From: Lytechinus pictus
Lineage: Eukaryota
Assembly (NCBI RefSeq): GCF_037042905.1
Contig: NC_087245.1
Location: 28,460,001-28,524,000, forward strand
DNA length: 64,000 bases
Reading direction: 5' to 3'
Each line of letters begins with the position of its first letter. The first letter of the stretch is position 1. Position numbers and translations under genes: made by a program. Under the pieces are notes generated by a model that saw nothing but the letters and a program-made list of their open reading frames with translations, did no database searches and had not been told where the DNA came from. Below, piece by piece: positions 1 through 64,000 of the stretch.

Positions 1-247
1 GGTTTCATTTTTGCTAATTTTTTGTGCCCATCATGGACTTATACAATACATAATATGGTAGATCAAAGTCTGGGTGATAACCTGAATATAGATTTAAGAT
101 TGCATGGACAGGTAAACCTTTAATAGCAAAACTTTATCACACTGATATCCTCAAAGTTAATAAGCAGACAGAGCAAACAGTGCATCTTCATTAATTGATA
201 TTCCTGTGTATAAAAAAATTAAATCCTTAGTTTTGTTTGATACTAAC

Positions 248-3400: not shown

Positions 3401-4058
3401 GCATCACAGCATTCAAAGTCAGCCATTGTTAGACTGTAGGCTCAAACATGATAGATGGATCATGGCGCTGTCCGTATCGAGGCCGTGCATGAGCTAGTGA
3501 GACATGTGTTGTTTTTTTCCCACAAAAAAAAGAATGTGTTAACATGGTTGCGCTGTGCCCTGATTTACTGGAAAATTATTCTATCTAAGTTCTTTTGGTG
3601 ATTTGGGTAAGATAGTTTCATAAAAAATAATGTGGCTGTAGGGAGACTATATTGGAAAATGTATGTAATCAAAGTGAGTGTGCGTAGGAATTTTGATTTC
3701 AGATTGAAATCTTGTTTACCCTCGTAATAGATAGAAAAAAAAATTGGCAAGTGTGCGTCCGGATAATAGAGAGATCCGGATAAGGGGAGGCCGGATAAGA
3801 GACGTCGGACTGTAATTTCAAAAGGGCATTTAAGGCATTCATCATCATCGTCATCACCACCATTACCAACATCCTTATCACCATCATCATTATTATAATT
3901 ATATAATTATTATGACTGTATTCCCCTAGTTCCCCTTTATCAGGGAGATCATCTGGCTGAATACTAGGCATCGCAATGATCTGTCAAGCAGACTGATCAT
4001 TATCATCATCATCATCATCACCATCACCATCACCATCACCATCATCATCACCATCACC

Positions 4059-4090
<32 letters not shown>

Positions 4091-4201
4091 CATCACCATC
4101 ACCATCACCATCATCACCATCATCATCATCATCATCACCATCACCATCATCATCATCATCACCATCACCATCACCATCATCATCATCATCACCATCATCA
4201 C

Positions 4202-4236
<35 letters not shown>

Positions 4237-4253
4237 CCATCACCATCACCATC

Positions 4254-4333
<80 letters not shown>

Positions 4334-4381
4334 TATCATCATCATCACCATCACCATCATCATCACCATCACCATCATCAC

Positions 4382-4416
<35 letters not shown>

Positions 4417-4433
4417 CCATCACCATCACCATC

Positions 4434-4465
<32 letters not shown>

Positions 4466-4538
4466 CATCATCATCATTATCATCATCATCACCATCACCA
4501 TCATCATCACCATCACCATCATCATCATCACCATCACC

Positions 4539-4584
<46 letters not shown>

Positions 4585-4676
4585 CCATCATCACCATCAT
4601 CATCATCATCACCACCATCACCATCACCATCATCACCATCATCATCATCATCATCATCACCATCACCATCACCATC

Positions 4677-4755
<79 letters not shown>

Positions 4756-4775
4756 CCATCACCATCATCATCATC

Positions 4776-4807
<32 letters not shown>

Positions 4808-37800: not shown

Positions 37801-40800
37801 TGTGTCGAGAGACTTGTACTCTCTGTAGCCTACAAGATAACCCCAAATATGAGTAATTGGAGATGATTAGAATTTGGAGACGATATACACCACTGATCTG
37901 AAGATAATCAGGTATTAATGGATAATCCTTTCATCTGTGAAGGTCAACCATACATGTATGCATGGTTGCCCCACTAATGAAAATCTCATGATTCAATCAT
38001 GGATGTCTGTAGTGATGAGTTTTTCCCATGGGCTTCTTGTGTTGCTATGCCTTTATTCCATCTTATTAATAACCCCCCCCCCAAAAAAAAAAAAATGAAG
38101 ACTTGAAAAGATGTTTGGACATCTTGCCTTTTTGTTCTTACCACTTTTGACAACATTTAACACATCACAACACGCAAACATAGAATCTTAACCTACTTGT
38201 GGTAAATAATAAATGTTGTGATAAAGCAAAGAGCTCACACAATTCAAAATAGAGTTTAGAAAATATATCAACCAACAAGGCCCCCTGAAAAAATGAAAAT
38301 AAAGGAGAAATGAAAAATTAAGGTGATACTATTTGGTACCACATTATGACGTATTTAAGACTTCACAAGCAATTTAGCAACTATGACAGAGGAATATTAG
38401 AGAGATAAATAATTACTTTACAAAATCTGAGCAACCACAGAACAAGATGAGATCAAAGATTTTTGAAGACTATGGCAGCAATGGGAATAGCAAGAATTAG
38501 GAAGGAATATGACAGAGAAAAAGACGGAAGGGGAGGAGGTTCAGTGTTTCAGAGGGAGAGAGAGGGGGGATTGGCAGCAGCCAATATCAATAAAATGTTG
38601 AAAATATTTCAAATAGGAGGCCTGTAGTAGTATCACAGACTGAACAAAGTAATGAGCAAGAAAATACTTGGAAACTACTTCAAATATATGGGTTCTTTGC
38701 ATTGACAACTTTTGGGGGAACCCTCTTGATTCTTCCTATCAGATGGATCAAACTGTGAAAACAGAATAATCAAAGAAACAAAGTAATGAAAATTCAAGGA
38801 AAATTGAACATATCATAAGATAATAAAGAGCATTTGATTGTTGAGATCACTGATGATGTGGGCATAGGAATTCCTCCCATTGGCAATGTAACCAATGTGA
38901 TGTCAGTCACACTTGTACAACTCCCCAATTACCTTTCTAAATTTTCACTTTAATTGTGACTTTAATCAAGTCTATCCATGGCCCATCTAAAAATGTAGGT
39001 GTTTTGTTTTCTTTTGTTTTTATCAGACGGCATGTTCCACAAAGACTTTGTATTATCCCTCAGAATAAGCAACAAAAAAGAGAGAGATTGGGGGGGGGGG
39101 GTATATTATAAGTGTACAAAGGGGACAGTTGTACTTGTGTGACATCACGAATCTAGGTCTCATTGCAAATGAGAGCATTTAGATTTCAACATTCAAATGT
39201 TCATAACTCCTTATTTTTGGTCCGATTGTTTTCATACTTTATTTGATTTTGCTGTTTTCACAGTACAAGCTAAAGGTTCCAAAGGTTCCATTCTCCTTCA
39301 GAGGTTCAGCAGGATCTTGATCACTTTATTTTATAAACTCCCCAATGAAATGCATTTCACTAAAAAGATGACATTTGCAAGTACTGTAACAAAGAATCTA
39401 CACTATACAGTATACATACAAATATGCTAAATAATAAATATATGCTAATAATTTCCATATACTTTATGGCAAACTGCCAAGGACAAGGCTGTGCCTCAAG
39501 CTTGTCATCTCTACATAGTTCATCTTAAGATGCTGAATTAAGATTGTTCATAAAATATTCTTAACGGGAGATGGGTGGAGACGGGCAAACAATAATAGAT
39601 GATTCTTACCAGGGAAGCACAGTGGAGGAAGTGAATTGATCATCTCCTGATTGTAAGAGAGAGGAAGCGCACGGGGCTTGATGGACAGCCTCCTCGCCAT
39701 GCGTCTCTGACGTACGTAGGGGAATCCTCCCGGGCTGAAGTCCCTTCCAGGGGGCGTGACCACAGGGGTCCGGGGGTACTCGCTGTACCCATCATTAAGG
39801 AGAGATTTATTCTGGGGGAAGACGGCCATCTGACGCGTCAGCACGGCCAGAACTTGTGGCTCAAAGATGCTGGAAAATATTGGCATTCCGTCTCCACCGC
39901 CTCGGAAATTGAACTATCAAGAAATAAAAGACAAGGACATTTATCAAAACCACACTTGGTACCGTATTGTAATATTTTGTTGAAAGATTTCTGTTTCAGT
40001 ATTAAAAATGCATTAGATTTTCAATAAACTTTTCCGAGTCCTTCTTGAAATAAACACCCCAAACAGGTGTTTATAAAAAAAATGTTGTTATCACTGGTTT
40101 GAGTCATTAAAAGTTTCTATAGGCCTACAATTTCCCTTTCCAATAAAAACAATATTACTATTTGACCCAAAGTATAATTCAAAATTGAAATGTAGAAATC
40201 AACTGTCATATAATGAGTCCACCTCATTTTATTAACTAGTAAAAAAGAAGCTAATTTAATAATAATATTCAATGAAGGAGGCAAACTCTTCTTTAATCAT
40301 TTTAATTAACATTAATATTAATAACATGTCTGTATTTTTTAGCTTTGCAAAACAAATTCAGAAGATAAGAATAAAGTTTTGCTTCTTTAATTTTTATTAA
40401 AGCTTAATTTTAAGCTTAATAAATTAAATTAATACCTGAGAAGCAGACATCGACTTCTTGGCAACTTTCAATCCAGTGTCATCATCCATCCCCACAACAA
40501 CACACATCTCGATGAGAGCATTTGGTAGTTTGGGAGTAGCCACTGGGTTTGCTGGACTCAGTAGAGAGGCAGGAATCACCGGAAGCTGTAGGCTAGACAT
40601 GCCGCTGTTCGGGGCTAAACTCACGCTGCTTGTCAACTTCGGTCGGGTACCACTTGAAGTGGTGGATGACGACGTGAAATCCTTTGCACTCTGTCTCCAT
40701 TTATTCAGCAAACGGAGAGTAGGAACGATGGCCCCGAGTTTATCCCCAGCTTCGTTGTTGTGTATGTCGTCTGCACTGTGACTTTTCTCGTTGTGTTGCT

Positions 40801-40990
40801 GTGCGAGACTGATGTTGAGATGCAATTTCGGCTTCAATCGTGATGGAACAGCTGACGCGGAGGCCGAGCTGGGCGGAGGCGCTCCTCCGCGCTGATGTAA
40901 AACCCTCGTAGTCCCCCGACTCTCAGGGGCCTTCTCTCGCTCGCTGCCCCCGCTGCCGTAGTGTGAGCTACTCTCATCATACCCCGACAT
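248..40990 (-). CDS. DENND3: DENN domain-containing protein 3-like (Rab GEF); 18 coding exons in window, 3' part beyond left edge
   Basis: 18 GT-AG exons join in frame (3234 nt). uDENN (CVVVG...LCFPG...FHYLVLT), cDENN (ILTQQRIIFLS; PFKWPFVYVP...LDLLEAPGCFIMG), dDENN (FLEMF...FYNEMVHSHIF) and motifs recalled as DENND3-type (YLYLRG...ALDDFHNL, GMGRLVLTEKR, ELWAG...KDPQVVQQA). Confidence 0.9.
1205..1335 (-). CDS. DENND3: DENND3-like exon 17
   Basis: TCTCTAG|LFYMGEGSNIYREIVRTRDIEKLEKFEYFNILLSCQALRIYST|GTGAGT, phase 2 to 1. Confidence 0.9.
1431..1572. mobile_element. small hairpin MITE-like element
   Basis: TATTAACTGGCTTT ... AAAGCCAGTCAATA inverted ends plus internal inverted CTCATATTGCCC/GGGTAATATGAG. 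Confidence 0.5.
2217..2397 (-). CDS. DENND3: DENND3-like exon 16
   Basis: CTGCAG|YLDAETFMYFYEAWKEG...ESVLKMSSLIRTDHGMGRLVLTEKR|GTAGG, phase 1 to 2. Confidence 0.92.
2753..2851 (-). CDS. DENND3: DENND3-like exon 15
   Basis: AACTAG|GLREFIHWMQYLEIAIDVDVIDRLFNALSAGSS|GTGAGT, phase 1 to 1. Confidence 0.9.
3070..3812. mobile_element. pogo/Tigger-like (Tc1/mariner) MITE
   Basis: TIRs CAGTCCGACCTCTCTTATCCGG / CCGGATAAGAGACGTCGGACTG, TA on both sides (3068-69, 3813-14), subterminal CCGGATAA repeats. Confidence 0.85.
3907..3993 (-). pseudogene. decayed duplicate of the 3' end of exon 14
   Basis: Aligns to 4825-4911 at offset 918; CCA changed to TGA stop and donor GT changed to GG. Confidence 0.85.
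3996..4821. repeat. compound (CAT/CAC)n microsatellite, ~825 bp
   Basis: Continuous CAT/CAC triplets; 4201-4260 identical to 4381-4440. Confidence 0.98.
4844..5019 (-). CDS. DENND3: DENND3-like exon 14
   Basis: GTGCAG|LITELMNNLSAEDKELL...PVDLPDKGEL|GTGAAT, phase 2 to 1. Confidence 0.88.
5422..5558 (-). CDS. DENND3: DENND3-like exon 13
   Basis: TTTCAG|SCRQPALKASYLYLRGMFHIACNSPLDALDDFHNLHTADLSILPT|GTAAGT, phase 0 to 2. Confidence 0.92.
5693..5912 (+). mobile_element. CR1/L2-group LINE 3' fragment
   Basis: Translation FAKRSVPEWNELPHRVVNAVSLDSF fits the C-terminal WNxLP motif of CR1/L2 ORF2. Confidence 0.7.
6320..10295 (+). mobile_element. decayed Academ-like DNA transposon (transposase pseudogene) in DENND3 intron 12
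   Basis: Two CCAAT boxes (~6622, ~6672), GC-rich start, ATG 6783, then frameshifted fragments CIIC, KDLVAIEVRYHKSCY, RLGAFHTSMAMLSCIGKRFRDAGLETLVVESG, NGHHHNRSFHVHK...ERLRWQSF. Family assigned from recalled motifs; ends approximate. Confidence 0.65.
10345..10505. repeat. degenerate ~15-bp TAGACCAAATGG repeats (MULE/foldback subterminal type)
   Basis: Repeated TAGACC..ATGG motifs; reverse complement resembles the satellite subunit CCATTTGGTCTA at 26.8-28.6 kb. Confidence 0.5.
10577..10626 (-). CDS. DENND3: DENND3-like exon 12 (50 nt)
   Basis: ATGTAG|AQHFFTKCIEQLDHSIE|GTAAGT; phase 1 to 0 bridges exons 11 and 13. Confidence 0.82.
12681..12832 (-). CDS. DENND3: DENND3-like exon 11
   Basis: TCTTGCAG|IRKQQSTGQSVPDLRRRRVSG...FMLPLFHIPYTS|GTAATC; open frame, phases fit neighbours (2 to 1). 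Confidence 0.82.
13947..14174 (-). CDS. DENND3: DENND3-like exon 10 (dDENN)
   Basis: TCCAG|ELPEFMSMDQRWFKLEEFVSSR...FYNEMVHSHIFKPFREDRL...DQG|GTATGT, phase 2 to 2. Confidence 0.92.
15181..15795. mobile_element. degenerate Kolobok-like MITE (family of 35366-35951)
   Basis: Internal inverted blocks TTTGAATGTTGAGATCACTAATG / CATTAGTGGTTTTGACATTCAAA shared with the 35.4-kb copy. Confidence 0.6.
15890..16129 (-). mobile_element. 5'-truncated Deu(Nin)-domain SINE
   Basis: Reverse complement AAACACTCTGTCCCTTGGATAGGACGTTAAATGGAGGCCCCGTGT...GCACGTTAAG...AAGAGTAGGGG...CCCGGTGT aligns to 60812-60930. Confidence 0.75.
16200..16431. mobile_element. MITE-like element with degenerate TAACCC repeats
   Basis: CCCTAACCC/CCTAAAC run at 16290-16376, flanked by GACATGTGCTCC and GAGCAATTGTC/GCAAATGTC inverted motifs. 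Confidence 0.5.
17300..17458 (-). CDS. DENND3: DENND3-like exon 9
   Basis: TTCTAAAG|FYHARVKYYEL...QQEILDSFLEMFVHIF|GTAAT, phase 2 to 2. Confidence 0.9.
17986..18092 (-). CDS. DENND3: DENND3-like exon 8
   Basis: TATTAG|IEGLVIADIEKGTLHECPTLSVPSLPKGPTEGFKK|GTAAGT, phase 0 to 2. Confidence 0.9.
18582..18722 (-). CDS. DENND3: DENND3-like exon 7 (cDENN core)
   Basis: CTTTAG|CFFSYILPFKWPFVYVPVVSTQLLDLLEAPGCFIMGCNAIHRSRIQQ|GTATG, phase 0 to 0. Confidence 0.94.
18787..18877 (-). pseudogene. decayed duplicate of the 5' half of exon 7 including its acceptor
   Basis: TAG|TGTTTCTTCTCCTAC...TTCAAGTGGCCATTTG...ACACAGCTTCTTGATC parallels 18646-18725, with indels and an in-frame TAG. Confidence 0.85.
19208..20390 (-). 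mobile_element. L2-group LINE 3' fragment split by a piggyBac-like MITE
   Basis: YTPVRSLRSS...GPVLWNDLPQAIR...DTFTCYL|KTRLFNA reads through once 19381-20142 is removed; (TAT)n tail at 19208-19227. Confidence 0.8.
19381..20138. mobile_element. piggyBac-like MITE
   Basis: TTAA TSD (19377-80, 20139-42); TIR CCCTAAAAAGACTGGG / CCCAGTCTATTTAGGG (15/16); GGGGCTGAWTCAGCCCC palindromes near both ends. Confidence 0.9.
20420..21004. mobile_element. Kolobok-like MITE
   Basis: Imperfect long inverted ends (GGGCTGAA...AAATAGAG...TTTCATCAAAATCGGACAACAA vs TTGTTGTCCGATTTTAATGAAA...CTCTATTT...TTCAGCCC), TTAA at right end. Confidence 0.7.
21563..22193. mobile_element. Kolobok-like MITE hosting a nested MITE
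   Basis: AGGGGAAGTTCACCCTGAC ... GTCAGGGTATACTTCCACT followed by TTAA; relatives at 41626, 55793-56061 and 60300. Confidence 0.7.
21797..21957. mobile_element. PIF/Harbinger-like MITE
   Basis: TIR GTGGGTGTTTCATAAAGCTGTT / AACAGCTTTATGAAACACCCAC, CAG 3-bp TSD. Confidence 0.85.
22226..22423 (-). CDS. DENND3: DENND3-like exon 6 (cDENN)
   Basis: TTTTCAG|TLMLNEF...LHLPFLIF...ILTQQRIIFLSHDYSLLVPIIE|GTTTG, phase 0 to 0. Confidence 0.93.
22548..23023. mobile_element. Harbinger-like MITE with long imperfect TIRs, nested in a pogo-like relic (22461-23200)
   Basis: GGCCCTGTCTTACAAAGA...CAACTATGGAAAGCCAGCAA vs TTGCTGGCCTTCCATAGTTG...TCTTTGTAAGACGGGGCC. Confidence 0.75.
23982..24192 (-). mobile_element. 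tRNA-derived CORE-like SINE, degenerate
   Basis: Same blocks as 30470-30772 (CCCCAGTCATCGGAT, GGTACCCATTTAGCACCTGGGTGGAGAG, GAACACACGACC). Confidence 0.7.
26680..26788 (-). CDS. DENND3: DENND3-like exon 5
   Basis: TTGCAG|LAPDLYAKPQKMNELLKEFTLQLLIIPTPPAGNLYI|GTGAGT, phase 2 to 0. Confidence 0.9.
26806..28653. repeat. 105-bp tandem satellite, ~17.5 copies, built from ~15-bp subunits
   Basis: Exact 105-bp period (e.g. 26926 to 27031); near-identical units with a few recurring variant sites. Confidence 0.98.
30075..30235 (-). CDS. DENND3: DENND3-like exon 4
   Basis: TTTCAG|YPDEDFYS...CYVPACIVLISPNPYFTVMRECLS|GTAAGG, phase 0 to 2. Confidence 0.92.
30470..30772 (-). mobile_element. tRNA-derived CORE-like SINE
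   Basis: Minus strand has B box GTTCGAATCC, then CACTCTCCACCTAGGTGTTAAATGGGTACC core and a short (TAA) tail. Confidence 0.75.
30950..31074 (-). CDS. DENND3: DENND3-like exon 3
   Basis: TTTAG|GDARVSKSQREESFHYLVLTSLSGTRSYATCLTFYRQFIVHK|GTAAGT, phase 1 to 0. Confidence 0.92.
31100..31545. repeat. degenerate ~90-103-bp tandem repeat, ~4.5 copies, next to the exon 3 acceptor
   Basis: Recurrent GTTATCTTCTG...AAAATGCAATCAACAACCTCATYAAACCAACA. Confidence 0.8.
31770..32035. repeat. (CTT)n/(CTC)n low-complexity tract
   Basis: Direct inspection. Confidence 0.9.
32853..35325. mobile_element. Tc1/mariner-type non-autonomous element with long TIRs; left TIR interrupted by a HINE
   Basis: TA flanks; CAGTGCATATAAAAC + CAGGACAG... 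(33988 on) matches the reverse complement of CTGTCCCGTTTTTTTTATACGCACTG; ~250 bp of imperfect inverted similarity. Confidence 0.8.
32870..33985 (-). mobile_element. Helentron-associated non-autonomous element (HINE) with ~158-bp tandem repeats
   Basis: Minus strand TTTTTGTCTCACCTGCAT... to ...ATGCAGGTGAGACGGCCAGAGGCATTCCACTTG-TT; subterminal IR GTCTCACCTGCAT; (GCC)n microsatellite; ~6 repeats containing TGACCTTTGACCTT; inserted in a T-run. Confidence 0.8.
35366..35951. mobile_element. Kolobok-like MITE
   Basis: TTAA TSD, TIR AGGAGAATGAAAC / GTTTCATTCTCCT, ~80-bp internal inverted repeats. Confidence 0.88.
36010..37475. mobile_element. Kolobok-like non-autonomous element, CpG-rich interior
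   Basis: TTAA TSD (36006-09, 37476-79), perfect 15-bp TIR AGTTGAATTAAGAAG, internal inverted GAGTGTGACGTCACCGGGGG pair. Confidence 0.85.
38715..39300. mobile_element. degenerate Kolobok-like MITE (family of 35366-35951)
   Basis: GAGCATTTGATTGTTGAGATCACT, CCTCCCATTGGCAAT, TGTGACATCAC and CATTCTCCTT blocks. Confidence 0.6.
39610..39913 (-). CDS. DENND3: DENND3-like exon 2 (uDENN)
   Basis: TTGATAG|FNFRGGGDGMPIFSSIFEPQVL...INSLPPLCFP G|GTAAG, phase 0 to 1. Confidence 0.9.
40436..40990 (-). CDS. DENND3: DENND3-like coding exon 1 (Ser-rich N-terminus, start of uDENN)
   Basis: ATG at 40990, MSGYDESS...ALIEMCVVVGMDDDTGLK...SASQ; donor CAG|GTATTA, phase 0. Confidence 0.85.
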
Positions 40991-41625
40991 CCCGTGATCA
41001 AGTTTATTGTATTTTTATTGTTTAGCAAACACTAAAAATATGTAATTGCATAAAACAACCTATTGTATGCATTAAAAGGTTCAATAAATCCCGCTTAGGT
41101 CATGCTCAATAAACCATTTGAATGAGCAAAGTTCGATCATACAGTCCAAAAACACATAACCAGCCGACGGTCTCGTCATGTGTTGATTTATTTACTGAAG
41201 TGTGAAAGAACATTATTGTACCAGTATACGGTACCGGTATGCATGCTCATGGCATGACTCGAAGCTTCGCTGGACTTCGCACCATAATGAAATACGATAG
41301 GTGTTAACAAATTTTGTGCACTTTCTGGCTGGTTGGAAAGGTCTCGTCTTGGAGGCAATTGGGGGAGCAAACCGGAGCAAAATGATTATTAAGGGCCCCT
41401 TCTAAAACCCTCATTTTAAATAATAACTAGCCTGGACTAATACCATAGCCAAACTCCGAAGAAGTATACATTCTCCCCTTCATTCAAATGATGAGAGAAT
41501 TTTTTTTCTTCTCCCTCTTATCTTAATAATTCTTTTACATCCCTTCATCCGACGAACATTTCTGTTCATGCAGATAACTTAATTGGATGAAAGAAAACAC
41601 CTTTTGGACCTGACTGGGTTCAAAA

Positions 41626-46455: not shown

Positions 46456-46586
46456 GATGATGCTGAGATGGTGTACGAGTTCTCCCTAGCGACTCCACCC
46501 AACTCCAACATCTCCGAACAGCCCTAGACGAGGCCCTACCCAATTCCAGAGACAGCTTGACAAGAAGGCCGATTCCGGAGCTATCT

Positions 46587-47900
46587 ATGATGGCAGGATT
46601 TGAGGAGCTGATCGACGATGTGCTGCAGAGATTGTCAGCGAGCACGGAGGAGCAGCTACTAAAGGCGGCAGCGGAGCTCAAGCTACCTGAGGAAGACGTG
46701 GGGAAAGCCAAGTCGAAAGGGCGAGCAGGACTGAAGCGTGTCATCAGACGCTTCCTAGATGGGGATGAGCTGGAGGATTCAGAGGACGGAGGCAAATCAG
46801 TGTTGCAGGGTTTGGCCAAGATCCTGGGAAAGGGGGACAGAGATGGAGATGATAATGTGGTTGAGGTAAAGGCCAGGACCACTAAGCTTCCAAGGGAACC
46901 ACCCACCCAGCCAAAGTCAGACCAGCCAGCTGAAGAGGCAGACGACACGTCACAGAGATCCCCCATCCTCAAGATGACCAACCAGCTGCCACATACTCCA
47001 GTCACGTGGAGAAAGGAGTTTAGGATACAGGGGCAGATTGGCGAGCCTAGCCAGAAGGACAAACTCTCTTTCGTTTCCCTCGCAAGACAGATTAACAGTG
47101 GCTTGAAAAAAGGATTTCCAGCTGAGGAGATCACCGAAGCAGTGGTGCGTGCTGTGAATCCAGGGCTCTCGCTCCGGAGCTATTTGGAGGGTCGAGGTGA
47201 TTTGGACTTGCCACTGTTACGACGCCTCCTGCGATCCCATTTTAGAGAGAGGGACGCTACTGCACTCTTCCAGGAGTTATCCTCGGCTGTGCAGGTTCCA
47301 AAGGAATCGCCACATGACTTCGTGCTCCGCACCCTAGACTTGAAACAAAAGGTACTGTTCGCCTCAGAGGAAAAGGGGGCAGCAATCTGCTATGGGAGTA
47401 CGCAGGTCCACAAGATGGCGTGGAGAGCAATCTCCACCGGTCTCCAGGATGCTGTTATCCAGCATGAGCTCAGGTCTACTCTACAACAAGATGTATCGGA
47501 TGAGGAGCTTCTGGAGGTGTTGACCACTGCAGTTGCACATGAGAGTGAGCGTCAACAAAAGCTGAAACCTCGCCAAGCCCGAGTTGCTGCTGCCATCGCA
47601 GAACCGGCAAAGCCTGAGACCACCTCTAAGCAAACGAGTAAGACAGAGGCACTGAACTTGAAAGAGCTGACGAACAGCATCCAACAGATTGTGAAGGCCG
47701 AGCTCAATGCTCTGATGGCTCAACCGAGAGGACCAAGATCTGGCAGGAGAGAGAGGGGCTGCGAGGCATGCCAGCAACAAGGACAAGGAGAGAGCTGCCG
47801 CCATTGTTTCCGGTGTGGAAGCTCTGAACATTATGCCAGGGGATGCAACATGAGGAGGCAGGGAAACGGGGTAGGGTTACTTGGGAGGGACAACCAGTAA
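46587..47900 (+). CDS. gag: Gag polyprotein
   Basis: Open frame from 46557, first ATG 46587; zinc knuckle [14 protein letters not shown] preceded by CEAC...CRHC. Confidence 0.92.
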
Positions 47901-50900
47901 CCTCAGATCCATCAAAGTCCCGACCTACCCTCAACTCGACAACACCTACAATAAACCCCAAGACGAGGACGCGAATGATAAAACTTATTGGAAAACAATG
48001 CCTTGTATCTTTGGTGCTGAATGATACGCATGTTGAAGTCTTGTGGGACACAGGAGCACAAGTCTCAATAATTTCCTTAGATTGGCTGCGACAGTACATA
48101 CCTAAAACCCAAGTCCTACCCATTTCAGCAATTCTAGATGGAGAGGAGACTTTGCAGGTGGCTGCAGTGAATGATACAGTCGTCTCATATGAAGGATGGG
48201 TGAAGCTGCAGTTGAGAATACCAAGGCGTGAACAGAAACCAGCCATCACCGTTCCTGTCCTCGTAACCAATCAAGCAATGAGACACCCGATCATCGGTTA
48301 CAATGTTATCGAGGAACTCATCAAGGAAGACTCCAAGAATGATGCCAAGATATCCCTTAATCGTACCCTCCCTAAATCTCATTGGCAGAAAATCAATGCG
48401 CTCACTGCTATTCTGAAGGGCCAGGAAGGAGAGGACATGTGCAGTGTCCTGATGGGCAGACATCCCATTACAATCAACCCTGGACAGACTCGAATGATTG
48501 TCTGCAATGTCCGCCTCAACCTCACCGACTCAACCACTGTCCTGTTGGAAGCCGACCCCCTTCATGTCCTTCCCGACGGGTTGAGCATCGAGTCAACACC
48601 TGTCGACCTCAAGGCTGGGAGACGCATGAAGATATCCACCCCAATCACCAACGACAGGAAGTGCAGTATCACCTTACCATCGTATTCATGCTTGGGGAAA
48701 CTAACTGCACTGCGCTCTGTATTACCAGCAGGGTTGCTCCAGGAGGGCAGACCACACCCAACCATGAAGGCGCATGTCGCCGAGGTGTCTGTTACATCTG
48801 CTGACAGCCTGCTAACTGAGAAATGGGCCCCACCAGTCGACTTGTCCCATCTGGATGACGGCCAGAAAGCAGGAGTGGAGGCGATGCTGAAGGAAGAAAG
48901 CGCTGCATTTGTCAAGAATGAACAAGACATGGGGTGTATCCAATCATTACAGATGCATCTTACACTGACTGACAATACACCGGTCCAGAAGACATACATG
49001 GCGGTCCCTCCACCCCTGATGAAGGAAGTGCGTGAATATCTACGAGACCTGATTAGCCGAGGCTGGATTGCAAAGTCAAAATCTGCTTACTCATCTCCAA
49101 TAGTGTGCGTGCGTAAGAAGGATGGGACTTTGCGATTGTGTGTGGACTATCGCCAACTTAATCAGAGGACCATGGCCGATCGCCAGCCAATACCCCGAAT
49201 CCAAGACACATTGGACACTTTAGATGGCAATCGGTGGTTTTCAACGCTGGACCAGGGTAAAGCCTACCACCAAGGTTTTATGGATGAGGCCAGCCGTCCC
49301 CTCACTGCCTTCATCACACCTTGGGGATTGTACGAGTGGGTGAGGATTCCTTTCGGCTTGAAAAATGCTCCGGCTGCTTTCCAAAGATGCATGGAATCTT
49401 GTCTAGAGGGTCTCAACAACGAAATATGTGTCACATACCTGGATGACATTCTTGTCTACAGTAAGACGTTTGAGGAACATGTTTCTCGTCTCAGAACAAT
49501 CCTTCAGACAGTGCAAAAACATGGAATGAAGCTACGGCCTGCCAAATGTCATCTTTTCCAGGAAGAGGTTAACTACCTGGGACGCCTTGTTTCAGCTGAG
49601 GGCCATCGACCAAACCCGGCCGACATAACTGCAGTACTGGCTTTGAAGGAAAAGAAACCAGCCACAGTTGGAGACGTGAGGAAAATCATGGGTCTACTCG
49701 GCTATTACCGTCGGTATATACCAGATTTCTCAAAGATGGCAAAACCCATGTACAACCTGTTAACAACAGACGTCAGCTCAGGAGGAACCAAGAAGAAGCA
49801 GAAATCTAACAAACAGGCATCTAAGAAACACCACCAGGCTTCTTCCCGCACTCCTGTAACATGGACACAACTTCACCAAGAGAGAGTGGAGATGCTAATC
49901 GATCATTTGGTCCAACCACCCGTTATGGCTTTTCCAGATTTCTCACAGCCATTCGTGTTACACACAGATGCGTCACAGGAAGGTCTTGGAGCAGTCTTGT
50001 ACCAGCGTAAAGATGGAAAGTTACGGGTGATCGCCTATGCATCCCGCACCCTTACACCGGCAGAGCGGAATTATAATTTGCACTCTGGCAAATTGGAATT
50101 TCTAGCCCTGAAGTGGTCAGTATGTGACAAGTTCCGCGACTACCTATTCTATGCTCCCTCTTTCCTTGTCTACACAGATAACAATCCGCTGACCTACATG
50201 ATGTCTACCGCAAAGTTGAATGCAACTGGGCAAAGATGGGTATCAGAACTTGCTGAATTCAACTTCACAGTGAAATACCGCCCAGGCCGTGCCAACGCTG
50301 ATGCAGATACGCTGTCAAGGATGCCTCTGAACATAGAGACATACATCGACGAATGCACAGAACAATCGCCAGCTTCCAGTATATGTGTAGCAGTGACACA
50401 AGTGCATGAAGCTCAGGAAACCCTTCCACTAGTAGCCAGCCTTACAGCGGATATTGCCATGGCTGAGGGTTTGGACGATAGCTCATCCCCAATCCAAGAA
50501 GTATCCAAGGAAGAACTCGCCAAGGCTCAGCATGATGACCGTGTGCTTGGAAAGATCATCAAACTGAAAGAACAGGACAACTCTCCAACCCCCACATGTT
50601 GGAGGTCTGCTTCTAGTGAAGAGAGAGCCCTCTTGCGAGAGTTGAAGAAACTGGAGTTAGGGCAAGATGGCATCCTCCATCGTAGAACACCAACTAGAAG
50701 ACAAATCGTCCTACCTCCATGCTACCGGATGCGAGTGCTCAAGGATCTGCATGTAAACATGGGTCATCTTGGTGTAGATCGAGTACTCGACTTAGCAAGG
50801 CAAAGGTTCTACTGGCCAAACATGCAGAAAGATGTGGAACACTTCATCCATCATGAATGTAACTGTCTCATCCAGCGTAAACCTAACCGACAGATTAGAG

Positions 50901-52573
50901 TTCCAATGGTACCAATCGTGACATCTGAGCCCCTAGAGCTCATCTCCATAGACTTTGTACACCTGGAAACCAGTAAAGGTGGTTATGAGTATATACTTGT
51001 TGTGGTTGATCATTTTACAAGGTATGCTCAAGCATATCCCACGAGGAATAAGTCTGGCCAAACTGCAGCTGACAGAATCTTTAATGATTTTGTACTTAGA
51101 TTCGGTTTTCCCCGCCGGATACTCCATGATCAAGGAGGCGAGTTTGAGAATAGGTTATTCCACCGGCTGCAGCAGCTATCAGGGGTGCAGAATTCAAGGA
51201 CAACTCCCTATCACCCCCAAGGGAATGGAAAAGCTGAGCGTTTCAACAGGACACTCCTTTCGATGTTGAGGACGCTTACCGTGGAGCAAAAGTCAAACTG
51301 GAAGGAGCACCTACTTAAAGTAGTCCACGCCTACAATTCTACTCGAAACGAGGCGACTGGCTATGCCCCAGCCTTCCTGATGTTTGGTCGTACACCAAGG
51401 CTACCAATCGATTTAGCATTCGGACTGAATGAAGAACACTCCACAACTGGAGACCAAAAAACATATGCTCAGAGATGGAAAACAGCCATGAGGGAAGCCT
51501 ATGACCTGGCAAAGCATACATCGCAGGCCAAGGCAGAAGTTACAAAGAAAACCAGAGACAAGGGACTACATCCACTCCCCTTAGAGCAAGGTGATAGGGT
51601 ACTGGTGAGAAATATGGTACCACAGCAAGGGCCCTCAAAATTGCGGTCATACTGGGAGAAGCAAGTTCATATCGTGAAACGGCGTCTTTCTCCAGACATC
51701 CCTGTATATGAAGTCTGTCCTGAGATCGGTCAAGGTAGAGTTAGAGTGCTCCATCGCAATATGTTGTTGCCCTGTGATTACTTGGGATTGCGAGTTCAGC
51801 AGGATCAGCCAAGCGGAGACAGGCAGAGACGAATACCTCGGGCACTACCACAGGCCTCCCCAGCAGAGATGAGAGACGAAAGTGGTGACTCGGATGATGA
51901 AGAAGTAACGCTTATTCCTGTTCATCCACACATTGCATCACCACCAGCTTCGCCACCTCCACCTCAGCCCCCATCTCGACTTGAGCCAAGGTATCCATTG
52001 CAGCCAACACCAGACAGCAGGATTGCTGATGATAACCAGCAAGGCACACCTCAAGCACCCTTACCTCATCCTGCTAACATACCTCCACCTCCCCCTGCCC
52101 CAATCCCACCTGTCCCAATGCCACCTTTCCTACCACCACCACCACCTCCCACTTTCTTTTCTTCACAGGATGCTGACCTCTACGACTCAGGAGACTGTTG
52201 CCCCCCGCAGCAGGATCGTCGGAACCCACCACGCAGGAGACAGCCTCCGCCGGTTCTGACCTATACTCAGCTTGGTGAGCCTCAGCAATGGCGACGGGAC
52301 CCCAATGTCAACATGGTGCAAACTGACCTCCCGAGGATGAATGGACAGCCAGGGCTGTACTACCCGCAGACACAACCACACCAGAGGATGATGCATCAAG
52401 CAGACCCCTGGTCATGGGATGCTGGCCTACCGAGAGGACAGCAGCAGGTTCGTATACCTCATGAAATGCCTTTGTTTATCTCCAGGCCTGCGTGGGACGC
52501 GGGACAATTCCAGCAATGGCAGCCATGGATGACAAGGACCCCCACCCCACAGCCGACATTTAGTCAGAACTAA
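47843..52573 (+). CDS. pol: Pol polyprotein (protease, RT, RNase H, integrase)
   Basis: LWDTGAQVS protease, YLDD RT, TDASQEG RNase H, H-H-C-C zinc finger, IDF/DQGGEF/KAER integrase, Pro-rich tail. Confidence 0.97.
47861..47902 (+). promoter_or_regulatory. -1 programmed ribosomal frameshift signal
   Basis: G GGA AAC in gag frame, 7-nt spacer, hairpin GGTTACTTGG/CCAGTAACC; pol is in the -1 frame. Confidence 0.85.
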
Positions 52574-57903: not shown

Positions 57904-59546
57904 TGTTGTTGTTGTTGAATATGATGGCGCTCTTCAATCTCTCCAGATTATACGCGCCAGTCACTTTCGTAAGTAGGACGTCGTCGGCAAAGGAGATCCA
58001 TACGACGTTAGACCATTGGTGACGATTATATGACATATTAATATAGATTAGTCACCCATCCACCTATTATATTAGTAGGTCCTACAAGATTAAACATCTT
58101 CGAGGAATAATACTTCAATACAAATAGAGAAATTAAATATCGCGCGTGCTAAATGATTGTTCGTGAAAAAGGGCACACCAGCTAACCAATCGGCTACTAG
58201 TTATATATTTATAGAATTTCTTAAAATATTCGTCAAATAACAATTCAAATGTGATATCACATACAATTACACGTCCTTCTTATTCTTTTTTTCTTTTTTT
58301 TTTAATCCTTCTTGTGTTTGAAAGAAAGAAAAGAAAAAAAAAAAAAAAAAAAAAAAAAGGACACACACCTAACTGTAAAAACGGTTAGTGGCATATATAA
58401 AACATAGTAGTTCCCGTGTATAATCGGGATTAATTAACAATTGTTTAAGATTCGGGTCATTCATCTTAAGTTTATTAAACATAATGCGTCTCTCCTTTAC
58501 ATATTTTGAACAAAATAAAACATAATGTTCAATAGTCTCAAATTCTTTGCACACCTCACAGAGGCCGGAAGAGTGCTGTTTAATTTGAAACATATAATAG
58601 TTTAATTTGCACTTACCTACTGTGATTTGATGAAGGAGGCATTCCTCTTTCCGAGAAAAACCTTTTCTATATGCCTGCTTAAAAACATTATCATGAATAG
58701 CATATAAAAATCTACCATTTCTAGACGCATTCCAATCTGCTTGCCAGACACTTTTATAAAATGTCATGCGTGAGCATGTGAGTTCATTTATAGTGTTTGG
58801 TAAAACGATGTCTACAAAATTTTTCGCGGCTCCTTTCTTGGCAGCTTTATCGACGATCTCATTGCCGTTAACATCACAATGTGAGGGAATCCATTCAAAA
58901 TTAATACAGATATCTTTCATACTGAGTTTATGAATTTTAAATAAAATTTCATTAACAATGGTGCATTTTATGAAATATGAATCAATCACATTCAGCGCTG
59001 ACAAAGAGTCGCAAAAAATTACAACTGAACATGGTTTATCAAAGGATTCTAACCACTCAAGTGCCATTAAAATGGCCAGGAGTTCCGCTCTCATGATACT
59101 TACATTGGATAACCTGAAATACTTTTTTATTTTATATTGAGGAACATAAAATGCTGCCCCCGTTCTAAAATTTTCCTGTTTGGATCCATCAGTATATATA
59201 TGTAAATAACCATTCCACACAATTCCAATTCTTTCTAGAACGATAGCTTTCATCTCGGCCGTTAGCATATCCTTTTTTCTAATTATACGATGAGCACAAA
59301 ACGACACAGGGGGGCGGGACAAACGCCATTCCGGGATTCTTGTTAATAAGTTGTCTTGCTTCTCTACAAGTACCTCATCACTACAGGCTCGAAGTTTGAA
59401 AGGTCTTTCCCCTTCCTTCCATTCGTGTCTGTTCGTATGTTCAATGAAAATTTCTCTACTTGGATGGCATAAAGTGCTAAACAACAAATAATATCTAAAT
59501 TTATCATTAAACAGTTTTCTCCGAAGATACAACGGTAATTCCGTCA
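57904..59546 (-). mobile_element. 5'-truncated I/Nimb-group LINE with RNase H
   Basis: TSD GTCCGATCGG(T) at 57893-57903 and 59547-59557; (CAA)n 3' tail; ORF2 C-terminus. Confidence 0.9.
58369..59546 (-). CDS. LINE ORF2 C-terminal fragment: RNase H plus CCHC finger (no native start)
   Basis: YTDGSK, AELLAI, FCDSLSAL, WIPSH...GNE..DKAAK, CEVC...EHYVLFC. Confidence 0.88.
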
Positions 59547-59646
59547 GTCCGATCGGTCTCTGTCATATCCTCTGCGCTAGAGCTGGCGCTATACATATAT
59601 TCACAATTACAGTAGCAGCCGATCTCACACGTGTTGTACAGACAAG

Positions 59647-60629: not shown

Positions 60630-61027
60630 AGAACAGAGGCAGCGTAGCTCAGTCGGTTAGAGCGCATGTTTCGGATAAGATCGTAGATCTCAACGTGAGG
60701 GGTTCAAGTCCCGCTCATGCCGAAATGCGTCTGACAAAAAATCTGATGCTATAGCGTTGTGTGTTAGCGTGCCTCACCACTGTATTCAGTGCAGGTGTGA
60801 ATGCAGTTGGAAAACACTCCGTCCATCGGAAAGGACGCAAATGTTGGTCCCGTGTATAGGAGAGTCACAGCCTATGCACGTTAAAACCAATACACTATTC
60901 GTCAAAGAGTAGGGTGTTCACCCGGTGTATTGCACCTTCCGGTCCCGGCAAAATTCAGGTCAAGTCAATCTTGACGTTCATATGCCATAATCAATATAAG
61001 ATTGTGGGCATTAACGGAAAGACAAGA
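60630..61027 (+). mobile_element. tRNA-derived Deu(Nin)-domain SINE, apparently full length
   Basis: A box TAGCTCAGTCGG, B box GGTTCAAGTCC, Deu-like core 60812-60930, AGAACCC duplicated at 60623-29 and 61028-34. Confidence 0.82.
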
Positions 61028-61405
61028 AGAACCCTTAAACAAGTTATGTCTACTTGCCAACAATAAGCTTAAATAGGCAAAACTAGGGGAAAAATATCCC
61101 ATTCCATTCCTTATTTTTATTTGGCAATAAGTCATGATTGACTATTTTTGCCACACACTGTATGAAAAGTAGGGTAACAATTTTATTAAGTATTATAATT
61201 TGTTATTATTTGTTTTATTTTTTCTTTTATATTCATTCCTTTTTTTCTCTGAAAGAAATTAGAAAAAACAACCAACATTTAAATACATATGAAACAAAAA
61301 ACTGAGGAATAAGATATCAGCAAACAATAGGGGGATTAATACTAAATAGGTTCATTATTGCGGACTGAAATAATCGCTAGAGGGTATTCATTTGTCTCGC
61401 AATCT

Positions 61406-62129
61406 GTTCGACAGAGCAGCACGTATTATAACTCACCCACCTGAACTCCCGAAAGAAAGAGCACACATACGTGGCGCCTTATACAGCAACGGCTACCCAC
61501 GCCGTTTTATCGAGAACACTTTCAAGAAGAAACATCCGCCAAGGGATCAGAAGGTTTTCAAGACTTGCACAGTCTTGCCATACAAAGATGGTCTTTCACC
61601 ACAACTCAAACGCCGATTAGAAGGTCACGGTATCCGAACGGTTTTCCGCTCGGACACCACCCTACACAAACAGCTTGTACACCCCAAAGACCCAATCCCT
61701 GATCAAAGACGTGATGGCGTAGTATACAACATTCCTTGCCAGGGATGTGACGGGTCTTACATCGGTGAAACAGCCCGACCGATAGTTGAACGCATTTCTG
61801 AACACAAGTGCGATGTTCGGTTACAGCAAACCGACACATCCACGGTGGCAGAACATGCTTGGGAGAAGCAACACCACCCAGATTGGGAGGGTGTACATTG
61901 CGTTGCCAAAGAGAGACATTGGTATACACGCAGGATTAAGGAGGCTATTAGTATACGTCTTTGTCCTAACAACTTCAACAGAGACAGCGGGATTGAAATC
62001 CCTGATTTCTGGATGCGAACCTTTCGACAGCACAATACCCCCTTACCTGGCAGTGCACGCCGACCCGATTGTTCCCGGCCCCGAGCGAGGGACCGCTCAG
62101 CTAGTCAACCCCCACCCACGGGAAACTAG
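61406..62129 (+). CDS. Penelope ORF C-terminal fragment (RT thumb/linker plus GIY-YIG endonuclease)
   Basis: LFDRA...NGYP...LPY...GVVYNIPCQGCDGSYIGETAR...RISEH...RRIKEA...NRDSG. Confidence 0.9.
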
Positions 62130-62150
62130 CGAGCCCGCCAATTTTGTCTT

Positions 62151-62266
62151 ATTTGCATATTGCTGACTCGTGGCGTATTTGCATATACCTCAGGCTTATT
62201 TGCATATACGAATCACCGGCCGCACCGTACATCGACGCACTGATTGGTGAAACGCCTGACCAATCA
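62151..62266. promoter_or_regulatory. cluster of three octamer motifs and inverted CCAAT boxes in the Penelope pLTR
   Basis: ATTTGCAT at 62151, 62177, 62198; TGATTGGT 62241 and ACCAATCA 62259. Confidence 0.55.
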
Positions 62267-62358
62267 CACAACGGATCAGTGCCCACCTATTGTTCCCACG
62301 TTCGTGTGTACGGTCCTGGGGATTGGTATGAATAGACTACGTTATCAGATAATTTTCG

Positions 62359-62399
62359 TCACTTGATAAAGAGTTGCAGCGGCACTCGAAAGCTCGTGA
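62359..62399 (+). ncRNA. minimal type I hammerhead ribozyme, U3-A8 core variant
   Basis: Stem I UCAC/GUGA; core UUGAUAA plus extra A; stem II GAGU(U)GC-AGCG-GCACUC; GAAA; palindromic AGCU stem III; predicted cleavage after C62395. Confidence 0.75.
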
Positions 62400-64000
62400 A
62401 CTTGTAAGCTAGTGAACACTTTTTGTGAGAGTGATCACGAATTTCCTTTTTGACCATAGTAGATTGCGAGACAAATGAATACCCTCTAGCGATTAATAGG
62501 GGGATTACTCCCCAGAAACGATAAGGTTGTTGATCAAAGATCTATAAGATATATAAAAGAAAAACATTCTAACAAAAGGGGATAACGTTTTAATAATTTT
62601 TTCGGTTCTTTGAATTATCAGTGTACCAAGCACCATTTGTGATAAATTCAGCATTTTTTTTATAGATTAGTTTACAATTCCAATAATCTCAGTGGCCTAA
62701 GATATATTTTCTGGGGTTATATTGACCCATTAAGTAAAGACAGAGAGAGAGGACTTATGTGATCAAGAAGTGATAAGATAGAAAAAAAACCTAAACATGT
62801 TTGGCTCAATAGTCTTAAAAATAGCTTTGGAAAAAAATAAAATATGTTTGACCCCGCAATTGACCATTGACCAGTCTTTCAAAACCACCCCTTTTTTTTT
62901 TGAAAATCAGTGTTTTTGATACCCTAAACGAGTGCATGCGCGGCCCGCATCCAAAACTGAAAAAAACACCCCTTTAAACGCATTTTTCGGTCATGCATGT
63001 CAGGGACTCGGTTTTATAATTATAAGGGGAGCAATAAAAAGCTCTCCTAGAACTTTTAAGGAGAGCGGTAGAGGAGCACTTCAAAAAGCTCTTCTTCAAC
63101 ATACAAGGGGAGCTTTTTGCCCAATTAACAAAATGGATGGAGGAAATGTACTATAAAATTACAATCAACAACCAAAGGAAGTATTTATAATTGTTTTACA
63201 ATGTATTGTAATTAGATTGTGTGTTGTAAAACCTGTTTTAGTTAGGTTTTGACTTTGGCTAAAAGTTAAGTCACTGACAATTTTTTTTTTTTTCGGGGGC
63301 TCCATTTTAATTTTTTTGTCAAATTTCGGGGGCTCTTTTTAAATGCTACTTTTTTGTATTTTGAGGAATACCTGTTCACTTATTAAGGAATTATTACTTT
63401 TTGTTTAATATTGTATGATTTTTAAAGTTATTTATCATGTTTAGAATCTTGGATGTGGGTGTGTGTGGATGGGTGGGTGTGTGTGGGTGTGTGCGTGTGT
63501 GTGTGACTGTGAGTTGGACTTGGATATAAATGAATTCAATATCTAATTTCCACTCCATTTATTCCAATACAATACCCTAGTCAGCCATGTACATGTAATA
63601 AAGGCCCACTTACCCTAACTTTTCCTGAAGTTCTTTGAAAACGCAGATCTCCATGAAAATTTAATTTCTCTATGGGGGAGTCTAAATTTGGTGAGAATGT
63701 ATTCATTAAGAACTTAAATATACATGACAATGAAGAAATCATCAAACTTTATTGGCAGTTTTGAATAATATTCCTGAAATGTAAACTCTGTCTGAAACAG
63801 AAAATCACCATCATTGAGGCCTTTACTGAGCGAATTGTCCCCCAGAGCTCTGGCAGAGAGACAGAGCTCCAACTGGCTAGCTAGAAAAGCGCCAATGCGT
63901 GAGCCTGCCGCCGTCCTTGTAAAAAAAGATGGAGCTTTGTTTGATGATTTATTGTCTGATATAATACCTCATCCCCTAGAAAAAGAAAACAAATTATTTT

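What the first reader, a model, noticed from the sequence alone, without database searches (positions are those of the whole stretch)
62359..62399. Minimal variant hammerhead ribozyme in the Penelope pseudo-LTR
Seen: TCAC-TTGATAA-A-GAGTTGC-AGCG-GCACTC-GAA-AGCT-C-GTGA folds into type I hammerhead topology. The usual CUGAnGA core reads UUGAUAA, a C3U/G8A change that keeps the 3-8 pair, and stem III is only the palindrome AGCU. Known: Penelope-like elements carry minimal type I hammerheads thought to cleave as dimers. Inference: this insertion has only one copy, so cleavage would need pairing in trans with another transcript, or it is inactive here.
Basis: partly seen in the sequence, partly recalled or inferred. 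Interest (0 to 1): 0.72.

Follow-up and report, generated by a model that had tools for sequence, protein, structure and literature searches.

The report
Penelope retroelement's minimal hammerhead ribozyme copy
This is a real copy of the small hammerhead ribozyme motif already known from the ends of Penelope-like jumping genes, carrying an already described base-pair swap, and because it sits alone in a shortened insertion with an altered promoter-like box it is likely an inactive leftover.

Summary
The motif is present exactly as described (62359-62399). It is the only hammerhead-descriptor hit in 64 kb, and a covariance model built only from other Penelope-like elements (PLEs) finds it at E=8e-8. 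It lies in the 3' pseudo-LTR of a 5'-truncated Penelope/Poseidon-type PLE (61339-62494; 13-bp target-site duplication, inverted tail), probably in a sea urchin. Of 66 related loci with enough downstream sequence, 57 carry the homologous ribozyme, with compensatory changes. The U3-A8 core, extra nucleotide after A9, bulged stem II and palindromic stem III are all published (Cervera & de la Pena 2014), including a sea-urchin homologue, so this is a new member of a known kind. The scan found this kind before on other DNA. The insertion holds one copy, and its TATA-like box differs from other family copies, so this copy is likely silent. Two additions: (1) a TATA-like box lies 35-38 nt upstream of the core in 9 of 10 hand-picked representatives, placing the ribozyme at the predicted transcription start; (2) a family-specific second cleavage-site strand (62407-62415) could allow monomer cleavage but is predicted to be hidden in a hairpin. 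No cleavage or expression was shown.

The parts
61326..61338 (+). Left copy of 13-bp target-site duplication
   Evidence: Exact 13-bp match to 62495-62507 (D10); an empty-site-like joint 61325 to 62495 with 13 letters fitting both sides in run X12 and 7 in X1
61339..61370 (-). 32-nt PLE 'tail', present only on the inverted 5' segment; holds the first codons of the family ORF
   Evidence: Loose ends of other insertions at 61335-61341 in three runs; the minus-strand translation ends in MNLFS, like the MSNIFS start of the full-length relative L001
61371..61405 (-). Inverted copy of the element's last 35 nt; too short to include a second ribozyme
   Evidence: Perfect 35-nt inverted repeat with 62461-62495
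61407..62129 (+). 5'-truncated PLE ORF: RT C-terminal part plus GIY-YIG endonuclease with two cysteines between the GIY-like and YIG motifs
   Evidence: 149 of 212 residues identical to residues 585-796 of the 797-aa RT-containing ORF of L001; 90% identity over 56% of the query to a protein labelled Lytechinus pictus; Pfam GIY-YIG only E=0.012, below its cut-off
62138..62264 (+). Promoter-like cluster in the pseudo-LTR: three ATTTGCAT octamers (62151, 62177, 62198) and CCAAT boxes
   Evidence: Sequence, repeat D4; motif names are recalled and function is untested
62327..62334 (+). TATA-like box 36 nt upstream of core position 3; this copy has G at 62330 where other family copies have A
   Evidence: table 3 (A in 4751 of 4829 depth in X1 and in all depth in X12, X2, X13); best TATA-consensus match in the 100 nt upstream
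62359..62399 (+). Minimal type I hammerhead ribozyme motif, U3-A8 core, palindromic stem III, predicted cut after C62395
62407..62415 (+). Second stem III/cleavage-site/stem I strand (AGCU-A-GUGA); possible cis substrate with a cut after A62411
   Evidence: Found by the same descriptor; chance about 3e-4 within 30 nt; absent in 57 of 57 related loci examined
62412..62438 (+). Hairpin (-10.6 kcal/mol predicted) that would hide the second GUGA; 62406-62447 is tandemly repeated in other family copies
   Evidence: joints from 62444-62447 back to 62406-62412 in all 4 runs
62461..62494 (+). 3' end of the insertion, at the first of two inferred reverse-transcription start sites
   Evidence: Loose ends at 62493 and 62496 in run X2; two-site pattern described for a Poseidon element
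62495..62507 (+). Right copy of the 13-bp target-site duplication

Best explanation
The motif is a minimal type I hammerhead in the 3' pseudo-LTR of a 5'-truncated Penelope/Poseidon-type retroelement; in full-length family members it likely cleaves slowly as a dimer of the 5' and 3' pseudo-LTR copies, possibly helped by the element's own protein, whereas this lone copy is likely inactive. Shown: the motif, its position after the ORF, its homology and covariation, the single copy in this insertion, and that the RNA copied here spanned the cut site (the insertion runs 99 nt past C62395). Inferred: (a) the two AGCU palindromes of a pseudo-LTR/ORF/pseudo-LTR transcript pair into a 4-bp stem III and give cuts after C17; (b) U3-A8 keeps the 3-8 pair and so keeps activity; (c) a TATA-like box at a fixed 35-38 nt puts the transcription start at the 5' edge of stem I, so cleavage of the upstream copy would remove the capped first 35-40 nt, about 86 nt (L001) before the start codon; (d) this copy lacks a partner in cis and has an altered TATA box, so it would fire only by pairing in trans with RNA of other copies.
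For: Descriptor and independent model. Homologue downstream of the ORF in 57 of 66 related loci with at least 200 nt downstream, 58 of all 80. Covariation on 9 sequences including the window: 95.2% of cells paired, 5 of 14 pairs changed on both sides (stem I, the 3-8 pair, two stem II pairs, and the palindrome AGCU versus ACGU); 0 of 500 shuffles reach the covariation score and slid controls are far lower. The full-length relative L001 has two direct copies 2714 nt apart around a 797-aa ORF. Published: same architecture, U3-A8 core, no monomer activity and low dimer activity (PMC4209133); a Strongylocentrotus purpuratus PLE motif with the same stem I and a Schistosoma mansoni motif with the same UUGAUAAA core (its supplement); U3-A8 active in vitro and natural (PMC3088659); protein-assisted cleavage and use of uncut RNA as template (PMC11167929). 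Insertion anatomy matches PLEs (PMC8557442; PMC3846280).
Against: No cleavage, expression or start site was measured. Most of the 80 loci come from one metagenome and one family, so independent comparisons number about four or five. None of the 58 downstream homologues has U3-A8 (55 C-G, 2 U-G, 1 C-A), so the swap rests on the window's own family. A strict TATA pattern was found at offset 30-40 in only 1 of 58 loci; the 9-of-10 result uses a consensus with mismatches, and the representatives and offsets were chosen after looking. Drosophila virilis Penelope has a TATA-less internal promoter (PMC2377424), and RNA-seq reads ending at the cut site were not found for the anole element.
Confidence: 0.75

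Rival explanations
1. This family no longer needs a partner: the second AGCU-A-GUGA strand at 62407-62415 would pair back in cis to form a 4-bp stem III (62391-62394 with 62407-62410) and stem I, so a lone copy could cut after A62411.
For: All hammerhead rules are met for this fold; recurrence of the 9-nt strand within 30 nt is unlikely by chance (about 3e-4); the strand begins a tandem unit seen in all 4 runs, and a contig of run X13 covers 62338-62435 with one difference. While the transcript ends before about 62435 the fold costs 5.8-6.0 kcal/mol, less than afterwards.
Against: Once 62435-62438 is made, the second GUGA is predicted to be locked in a hairpin and the fold costs 6.9-8.4 kcal/mol, a 1e-5 share of the ensemble or less. 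It is absent from 57 of 57 related loci. The deepest tandem-unit variant listed for run X1 (depth 242 versus 85 and 32) breaks the U16.1 position (table 5c), which fits a neutral local duplication. The insertion itself was copied from RNA uncut at this site.
Confidence: 0.08
2. The motif is kept mainly for a non-catalytic role (a protein-binding or folding element at the 5' end of the element RNA, or overlap with the core promoter), and cleavage is incidental.
For: Catalytic mutants of a Poseidon ribozyme did not affect insertion in vitro and no reads ended at the cut site; Naiad PLEs thrive without canonical hammerheads; stem I overlaps an initiator-like TCACT, a motif also noted in rotifer pseudo-LTRs.
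Against: The catalytic positions U4, G5, A6, A9, G12, A13, A14, A15.1 and U16.1 are invariant in the 9-sequence alignment, and the 3-8 pair and the palindrome covary, which is what catalysis as a dimer demands.
Confidence: 0.14
3. Chance resemblance of untranslated sequence to a hammerhead.
For: No Rfam match; folding energy no better than shuffles.
Against: Independent model E=7.7e-8; same place in related elements; published homologue.
Confidence: 0.01

Closest known systems
Minimal hammerheads (min-HHR) of metazoan Penelope-like elements (Cervera & de la Pena 2014, PMC4209133), especially the listed Strongylocentrotus purpuratus (1) and Schistosoma mansoni (3) motifs
   Same: Type I topology, 4-5-bp stem I, longer stem II, extra nucleotide between 9 and 10.1, G10.1-C11.1, palindromic 15.2-16.2, location in the pseudo-LTR; S. 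purpuratus (1) has the same UCAC/GUGA stem I, S. mansoni (3) the same UUGAUAAA core.
   Different: The combination of a U3-A8 core with this sea-urchin-type scaffold was not among the supplement passages seen; a second cleavage-site strand and hairpin follow the motif; fixed TATA spacing is not mentioned in the parts read.
Poseidon element PAc of Anolis carolinensis (Frangieh et al. 2024, PMC11167929)
   Same: Penelope/Poseidon-type ORF, hammerhead near the ORF start, tail bounded by two reverse-transcription start sites, AT-rich target with ATT at the site.
   Different: PAc has C3-G8 and its ORF starts inside stem II; here the start codon lies about 86 nt (L001) to 116 nt (this family, inferred from the inverted tail) downstream of the cut.
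Non-LTR retrozymes (Cervera & de la Pena 2020, PMC7229834; bioRxiv 10.64898/2026.07.22.740005)
   Same: Type I hammerhead related to PLE pseudo-LTRs; dimer dependence when stem III is short.
   Different: Retrozymes are tandem non-coding units each holding a ribozyme; this is a single motif after a protein-coding PLE fragment, and the family's 45-nt tandem unit lacks the catalytic core.

Membership tests
Hammerhead ribozyme | Core 3-U4-G5-A6-N7-8-A9, G12-A13-A14, A15.1-U16.1 and H17, with a Watson-Crick 3-8 pair | tested here: met
   core definition as; U3-A8 accepted as a natural active covariant
Hammerhead ribozyme | Stems I and II supported by compensatory change | tested here: met
   (across related families; about 4-5 independent groups)
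Hammerhead ribozyme | Site-specific self-cleavage after H17 | not testable with these tools
   No biochemical assay; the runs laid were contigs, which cannot show RNA ends
Canonical type I hammerhead (Rfam families; loop 1-loop 2 contacts; monomer-competent) | Match to Rfam hammerhead models; 6-bp stem I with tertiary contacts; closed stem III | tested here: not met
   No hit; stem I is 4 bp and stem III has no loop
PLE minimal hammerhead (min-HHR) | Short stem I, long stem II, extra nucleotide after A9, G10.1-C11.1, palindromic 15.2-16.2 | tested here: met
PLE minimal hammerhead (min-HHR) | Located in the pseudo-LTR of a PLE | tested here: met
PLE minimal hammerhead (min-HHR) | Cleaves as a dimer, not as a monomer | not testable with these tools
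   Palindrome covariation is consistent; activity untested
EN+ Penelope-like element | RT followed by a C-terminal GIY-YIG endonuclease with CCHH motif | tested here: met
   Alignment shows the two cysteines between the GIY-like and YIG motifs and downstream histidines; RT in relatives; feature list. The Pfam GIY-YIG score of the window protein is below cut-off
EN+ Penelope-like element | 5' truncation, inverted 5' segment, 30-40-bp tail at one end, target-site duplication | tested here: met
   definitions
Penelope/Poseidon clade | No CX2-5CxxC zinc finger in the RT-EN linker | tested here: met
   Linker read; rule
Penelope/Poseidon clade | Grouping with the clade in an RT phylogeny | not tested
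   No reference sequences were fetched and no tree was built
Non-LTR retrozyme | Tandem non-coding units, each with a complete hammerhead | tested here: not met
   One motif in the window; the tandem unit has no catalytic core

The most novel reading that the evidence does not exclude
PLE minimal hammerheads are 5'-end switches, not template-trimming devices: the pseudo-LTR core promoter fixes the transcription start at the 5' edge of stem I, so that dimer- or protein-triggered cleavage removes the capped first 35-40 nt of the element's mRNA and toggles it between translation and use as a template. In this family a duplicated cleavage-site strand may even let a lone copy fire.
Probability: 0.22. 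Interest if true: 0.55.

Novelty: new member of a known kind. Interest (0 to 1): 0.22.

Why it matters
As a motif it adds one more example to a class already counted in thousands per genome, with a core swap already in print. The value lies in the side observations. What PLE hammerheads do in vivo is unresolved. A fixed spacing between a TATA-like box and the ribozyme in unalignable families gives a precise, cheap prediction (capped starts at stem I; 5'-OH ends after C17). The natural cis duplicate of the cleavage-site strand is a ready test of whether dimer dependence can be bypassed.

Tried and rejected
Rfam at gathering score and at E<=10: no hammerhead family. Folding z-score: uninformative. 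No whole genome is held, so family copies could not be counted or aligned. Viral contigs: no protein relative; a DNA pattern gave 2 matches, both lacking the stems and judged chance. Run search: no RNA holder listed, which is no evidence on expression. Depth is higher over 62373-62474 than over the ORF, most strongly in the two runs guessed to be RNA, but these are contigs and cannot rank parts of an element, so it is not used. No substitution is listed in 62331-62494 among the 40 rows shown (38 fall in 61404-62330), but 81 rows were hidden, so this is only a hint that U3-A8 is family-wide. Short-intron idea (donor-like GT at 62404, pyrimidine tract and AG at 62459/62462): no such joint among the 15 of 24 joints shown, and L001 lacks the donor; dropped. 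The weak model hit at 46682-46726 lies inside the Gypsy gag frame and lacks U16.1; chance. Strict TATA pattern: 1 of 58 loci. Earlier findings by sequence: none. Lunse et al. 2017 is not held; only its title was seen, and it may already list this motif. Supplement file 1 of PMC4209133 was not searchable. Literature searches for a cis-duplicated cleavage strand, for fixed TATA-ribozyme spacing and for urchin PLE hammerheads listed no paper on these points, but they are narrow word searches of an open-access library.

Full report
OBSERVATION. The 41-nt motif is at 62359-62399 as described: stem I 62359-62362/62396-62399; core U3-U4-G5-A6-U7-A8-A9 at 62363-62369; an extra A; stem II of 4+2 bp with a bulged U, closed by G10.1-C11.1; G12-A13-A14; the palindrome AGCU at 62391-62394; C17 at 62395. 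A minimal-hammerhead descriptor allowing C3-G8 or U3-A8 gives this one hit on both strands of 64 kb, against 4 hits in 60 order-3 Markov simulations. The minimum-energy fold has stems I and II but is no more stable than shuffles (63 of 200 as good). Rfam has no matching family at gathering score over the window or at E<=10 over 61300-62600.

CONTEXT. The frame at 61374-62129 has no Pfam hit at E<=0.001 and only a sub-threshold GIY-YIG hit (E=0.012). It has 25 relatives, one 90% identical over 56% of the query and labelled Lytechinus pictus, so the host is probably a sea urchin (inference). It is 70% identical (149 of 212) to the C-terminus of a 797-aa ORF with an RT domain in locus L001. The alignment shows two cysteines between the GIY-like and YIG motifs and no zinc finger in the linker, which by the rules in PMC8557442 (passages) means Penelope/Poseidon; no tree was built. 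The insertion runs 61339-62494 between exact 13-bp duplications; an empty-site-like joint appears in two runs. Its 5' end is an inverted segment: 35 nt identical to the 3' end plus a 32-nt extension holding the first codons of the ORF. Other insertions end at the same two points. This is the tail-and-inversion pattern described in PMC8557442, PMC3846280 (passages) and PMC11167929 (parts 1-2 of 4). No second copy lies in the window, and the inverted segment is too short to include the ribozyme.

HOMOLOGY AND COVARIATION. A protein-anchored scan of metagenome contigs found 153 relatives, of which the best 80 were kept. A covariance model from 8 of their motifs, without the window, finds 62358-62400 at 31.7 bits, E=7.7e-8; the next of 12 hits scores 11.7 bits. 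The same model finds a sense-strand motif downstream of the ORF in 58 of 80 loci, 57 of the 66 with at least 200 nt downstream. On 9 sequences chosen for diversity (window plus 8 loci), 95.2% of cells pair, 5 of 14 pairs change on both sides, 0 of 500 shuffles reach the covariation score (1 of 500 for the number of such pairs, 29 of 500 for pair types) and slid controls are much lower. The changes include stem I, stem II, the 3-8 pair and the palindrome (AGCU versus ACGU), the last being what a dimer requires. Caveat: most loci come from one metagenome and one family; there are about four or five independent groups. Among the 58 homologues the 3-8 pair is C-G in 55, U-G in 2, C-A in 1 and never U-A; a separate U3-A8 motif of another family was seen by eye at L049 position 23. 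L001 shows the intact layout: two direct copies 2714 nt apart flanking the ORF. Four runs hold many related copies of the window's own family; a contig of run X13 covers 62338-62435 with one difference, so at most one of U3 and A8 differs there.

WHAT IS KNOWN. PMC4209133 (parts 1-2 of 4 read; supplement passages) describes minimal hammerheads in PLE pseudo-LTRs with exactly these traits, reports the U3-A8 core in about 1,300 Schistosoma mansoni hits, finds no monomer activity and low dimer activity, and lists a Strongylocentrotus purpuratus PLE motif with the same stem I. PMC3088659 (passages) reports natural U3-A8 hammerheads and cites their activity in vitro. PMC11167929 shows that a Poseidon ribozyme cleaves only with the element's protein, that cleavage is not needed for insertion in vitro, and that no RNA-seq reads ended at the cut. 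PMC6765202 (passages) summarises the dimer model; Lunse et al. 2017 was seen only as a title there. PMC7229834 (passages) and bioRxiv 10.64898/2026.07.22.740005 (part 1 of 5) cover the related retrozymes. PMC7151607 (passages) gave the core numbering. Earlier notes of this scan report the same kind of motif in other genomes; I did not check them.

First, a second AGCU-A-GUGA strand lies at 62407-62415. It satisfies all rules for a monomer with a 4-bp stem III and a cut after A62411, and its recurrence within 30 nt is unlikely by chance (about 3e-4). But 62412-62438 is predicted to form a -10.6 kcal/mol hairpin, and the fold costs 5.8-8.4 kcal/mol depending on transcript length. For comparison, the plain stem I+II state costs 2.4 kcal/mol here and 1.5-7.2 in 12 relatives, a different state and so a loose control. 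The duplicate is absent from 57 of 57 related loci. It starts a 45-nt unit that is tandemly repeated in copies from all 4 runs, and the deepest variant listed in X1 breaks U16.1. A neutral local duplication is the likelier origin.

Second, other family copies have A at 62330, which makes 62327-62334 a consensus TATA box (consensus recalled) 36 nt upstream of core position 3. A strict pattern is found at offset 30-40 in only 1 of 58 loci. Allowing mismatches, the best match in the upstream 100 nt lies at 35-38 nt in 9 of 10 hand-picked representatives, which fall into four groups whose upstream 60 nt share only 10-22 letters between groups; per-sequence shuffle p is below 0.04 for 8 of 10. Representatives and offsets were chosen after looking, so this is a lead. 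About 30 nt from the box (recalled rule) falls at 62357-62361, the 5' edge of stem I, which reads TCACT, an initiator-like motif also noted in rotifer pseudo-LTRs. Pseudo-LTRs are known to hold the start site, but Drosophila virilis Penelope uses a TATA-less internal promoter (PMC2377424, passages). Ribozyme cleavage in 5' leaders can promote cap-independent translation in other systems (PMC13725137, passages).

MECHANISM. Shown: motif, homology, position, single copy, and that the RNA copied here spanned the cut site, since the insertion extends 99 nt past C62395. Inferred: in a full-length transcript the 5' and 3' copies pair through their palindromes and cut slowly, perhaps with help from the element's protein; the upstream cut would remove the capped first 35-40 nt, about 86 nt before the start codon in L001; the downstream cut would remove the tail where reverse transcription starts, so only uncut RNA is copied. 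This copy has no partner in cis, a truncated ORF and an altered TATA box, so it is likely silent (confidence 0.75 for the whole account; about 0.97 for the identity of the motif).

VERDICT. Observation confirmed, interpretation supported, new member of a known kind, interest 0.22. The most novel reading not excluded is a cap-removing switch fixed at the transcription start (probability 0.22, interest 0.55 if true). The word searches listed no paper on the fixed spacing or the cis duplicate; Lunse et al. 2017 and supplement file 1 of PMC4209133, which I could not see, may bear on both.

Noticed in passing
window 46467-52573 (+): Gypsy-type LTR retrotransposon with two long open frames (477 aa gag-like; 1581 aa with RT, RNase H and integrase by Pfam), apparently uninterrupted.
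   Followed up: partly
window 58369-59562 (-): 397-aa frame with RNase H and a weak zinc-finger hit, likely the 3' end of a non-LTR retrotransposon.
   Followed up: partly
window about 60640-60930 (+): tRNA-like head followed by a body resembling a SINE (recalled resemblance); ARAGORN calls no tRNA in the window.
   Followed up: partly
window 61200-61338 and 62495-62700: Both flanks of the PLE are covered at high depth by diverged contigs, so the PLE likely landed inside another repeat.
   Followed up: no
window 62151-62205: Three ATTTGCAT octamers at 21-26 nt spacing plus CCAAT boxes in the pseudo-LTR; some family copies lack about 45 nt just downstream, joints near 62203-62255.
   Followed up: no
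L049 about 18-60 (+); L012 about 2087 (-); L027 338-381 (-): Minimal hammerheads of other families near related loci; the L049 one has a U3-A8 core with a different scaffold.
   Followed up: no
L007, L010, L017, L019, L021, L023, L028, L035, L042, L044, L048, L069: Opposite-strand hammerheads upstream of the ORF fragment, i.e. inverted 5' segments long enough to carry the ribozyme, unlike in the window.
   Followed up: no
window 3926-4891 and 26746-28704: A long CAT/CAC triplet repeat and a long tandem repeat giving spurious open frames.
   Followed up: no
window 40424-41014 (-): 196-aa frame that looks like an exon of a host gene; not identified.
   Followed up: no
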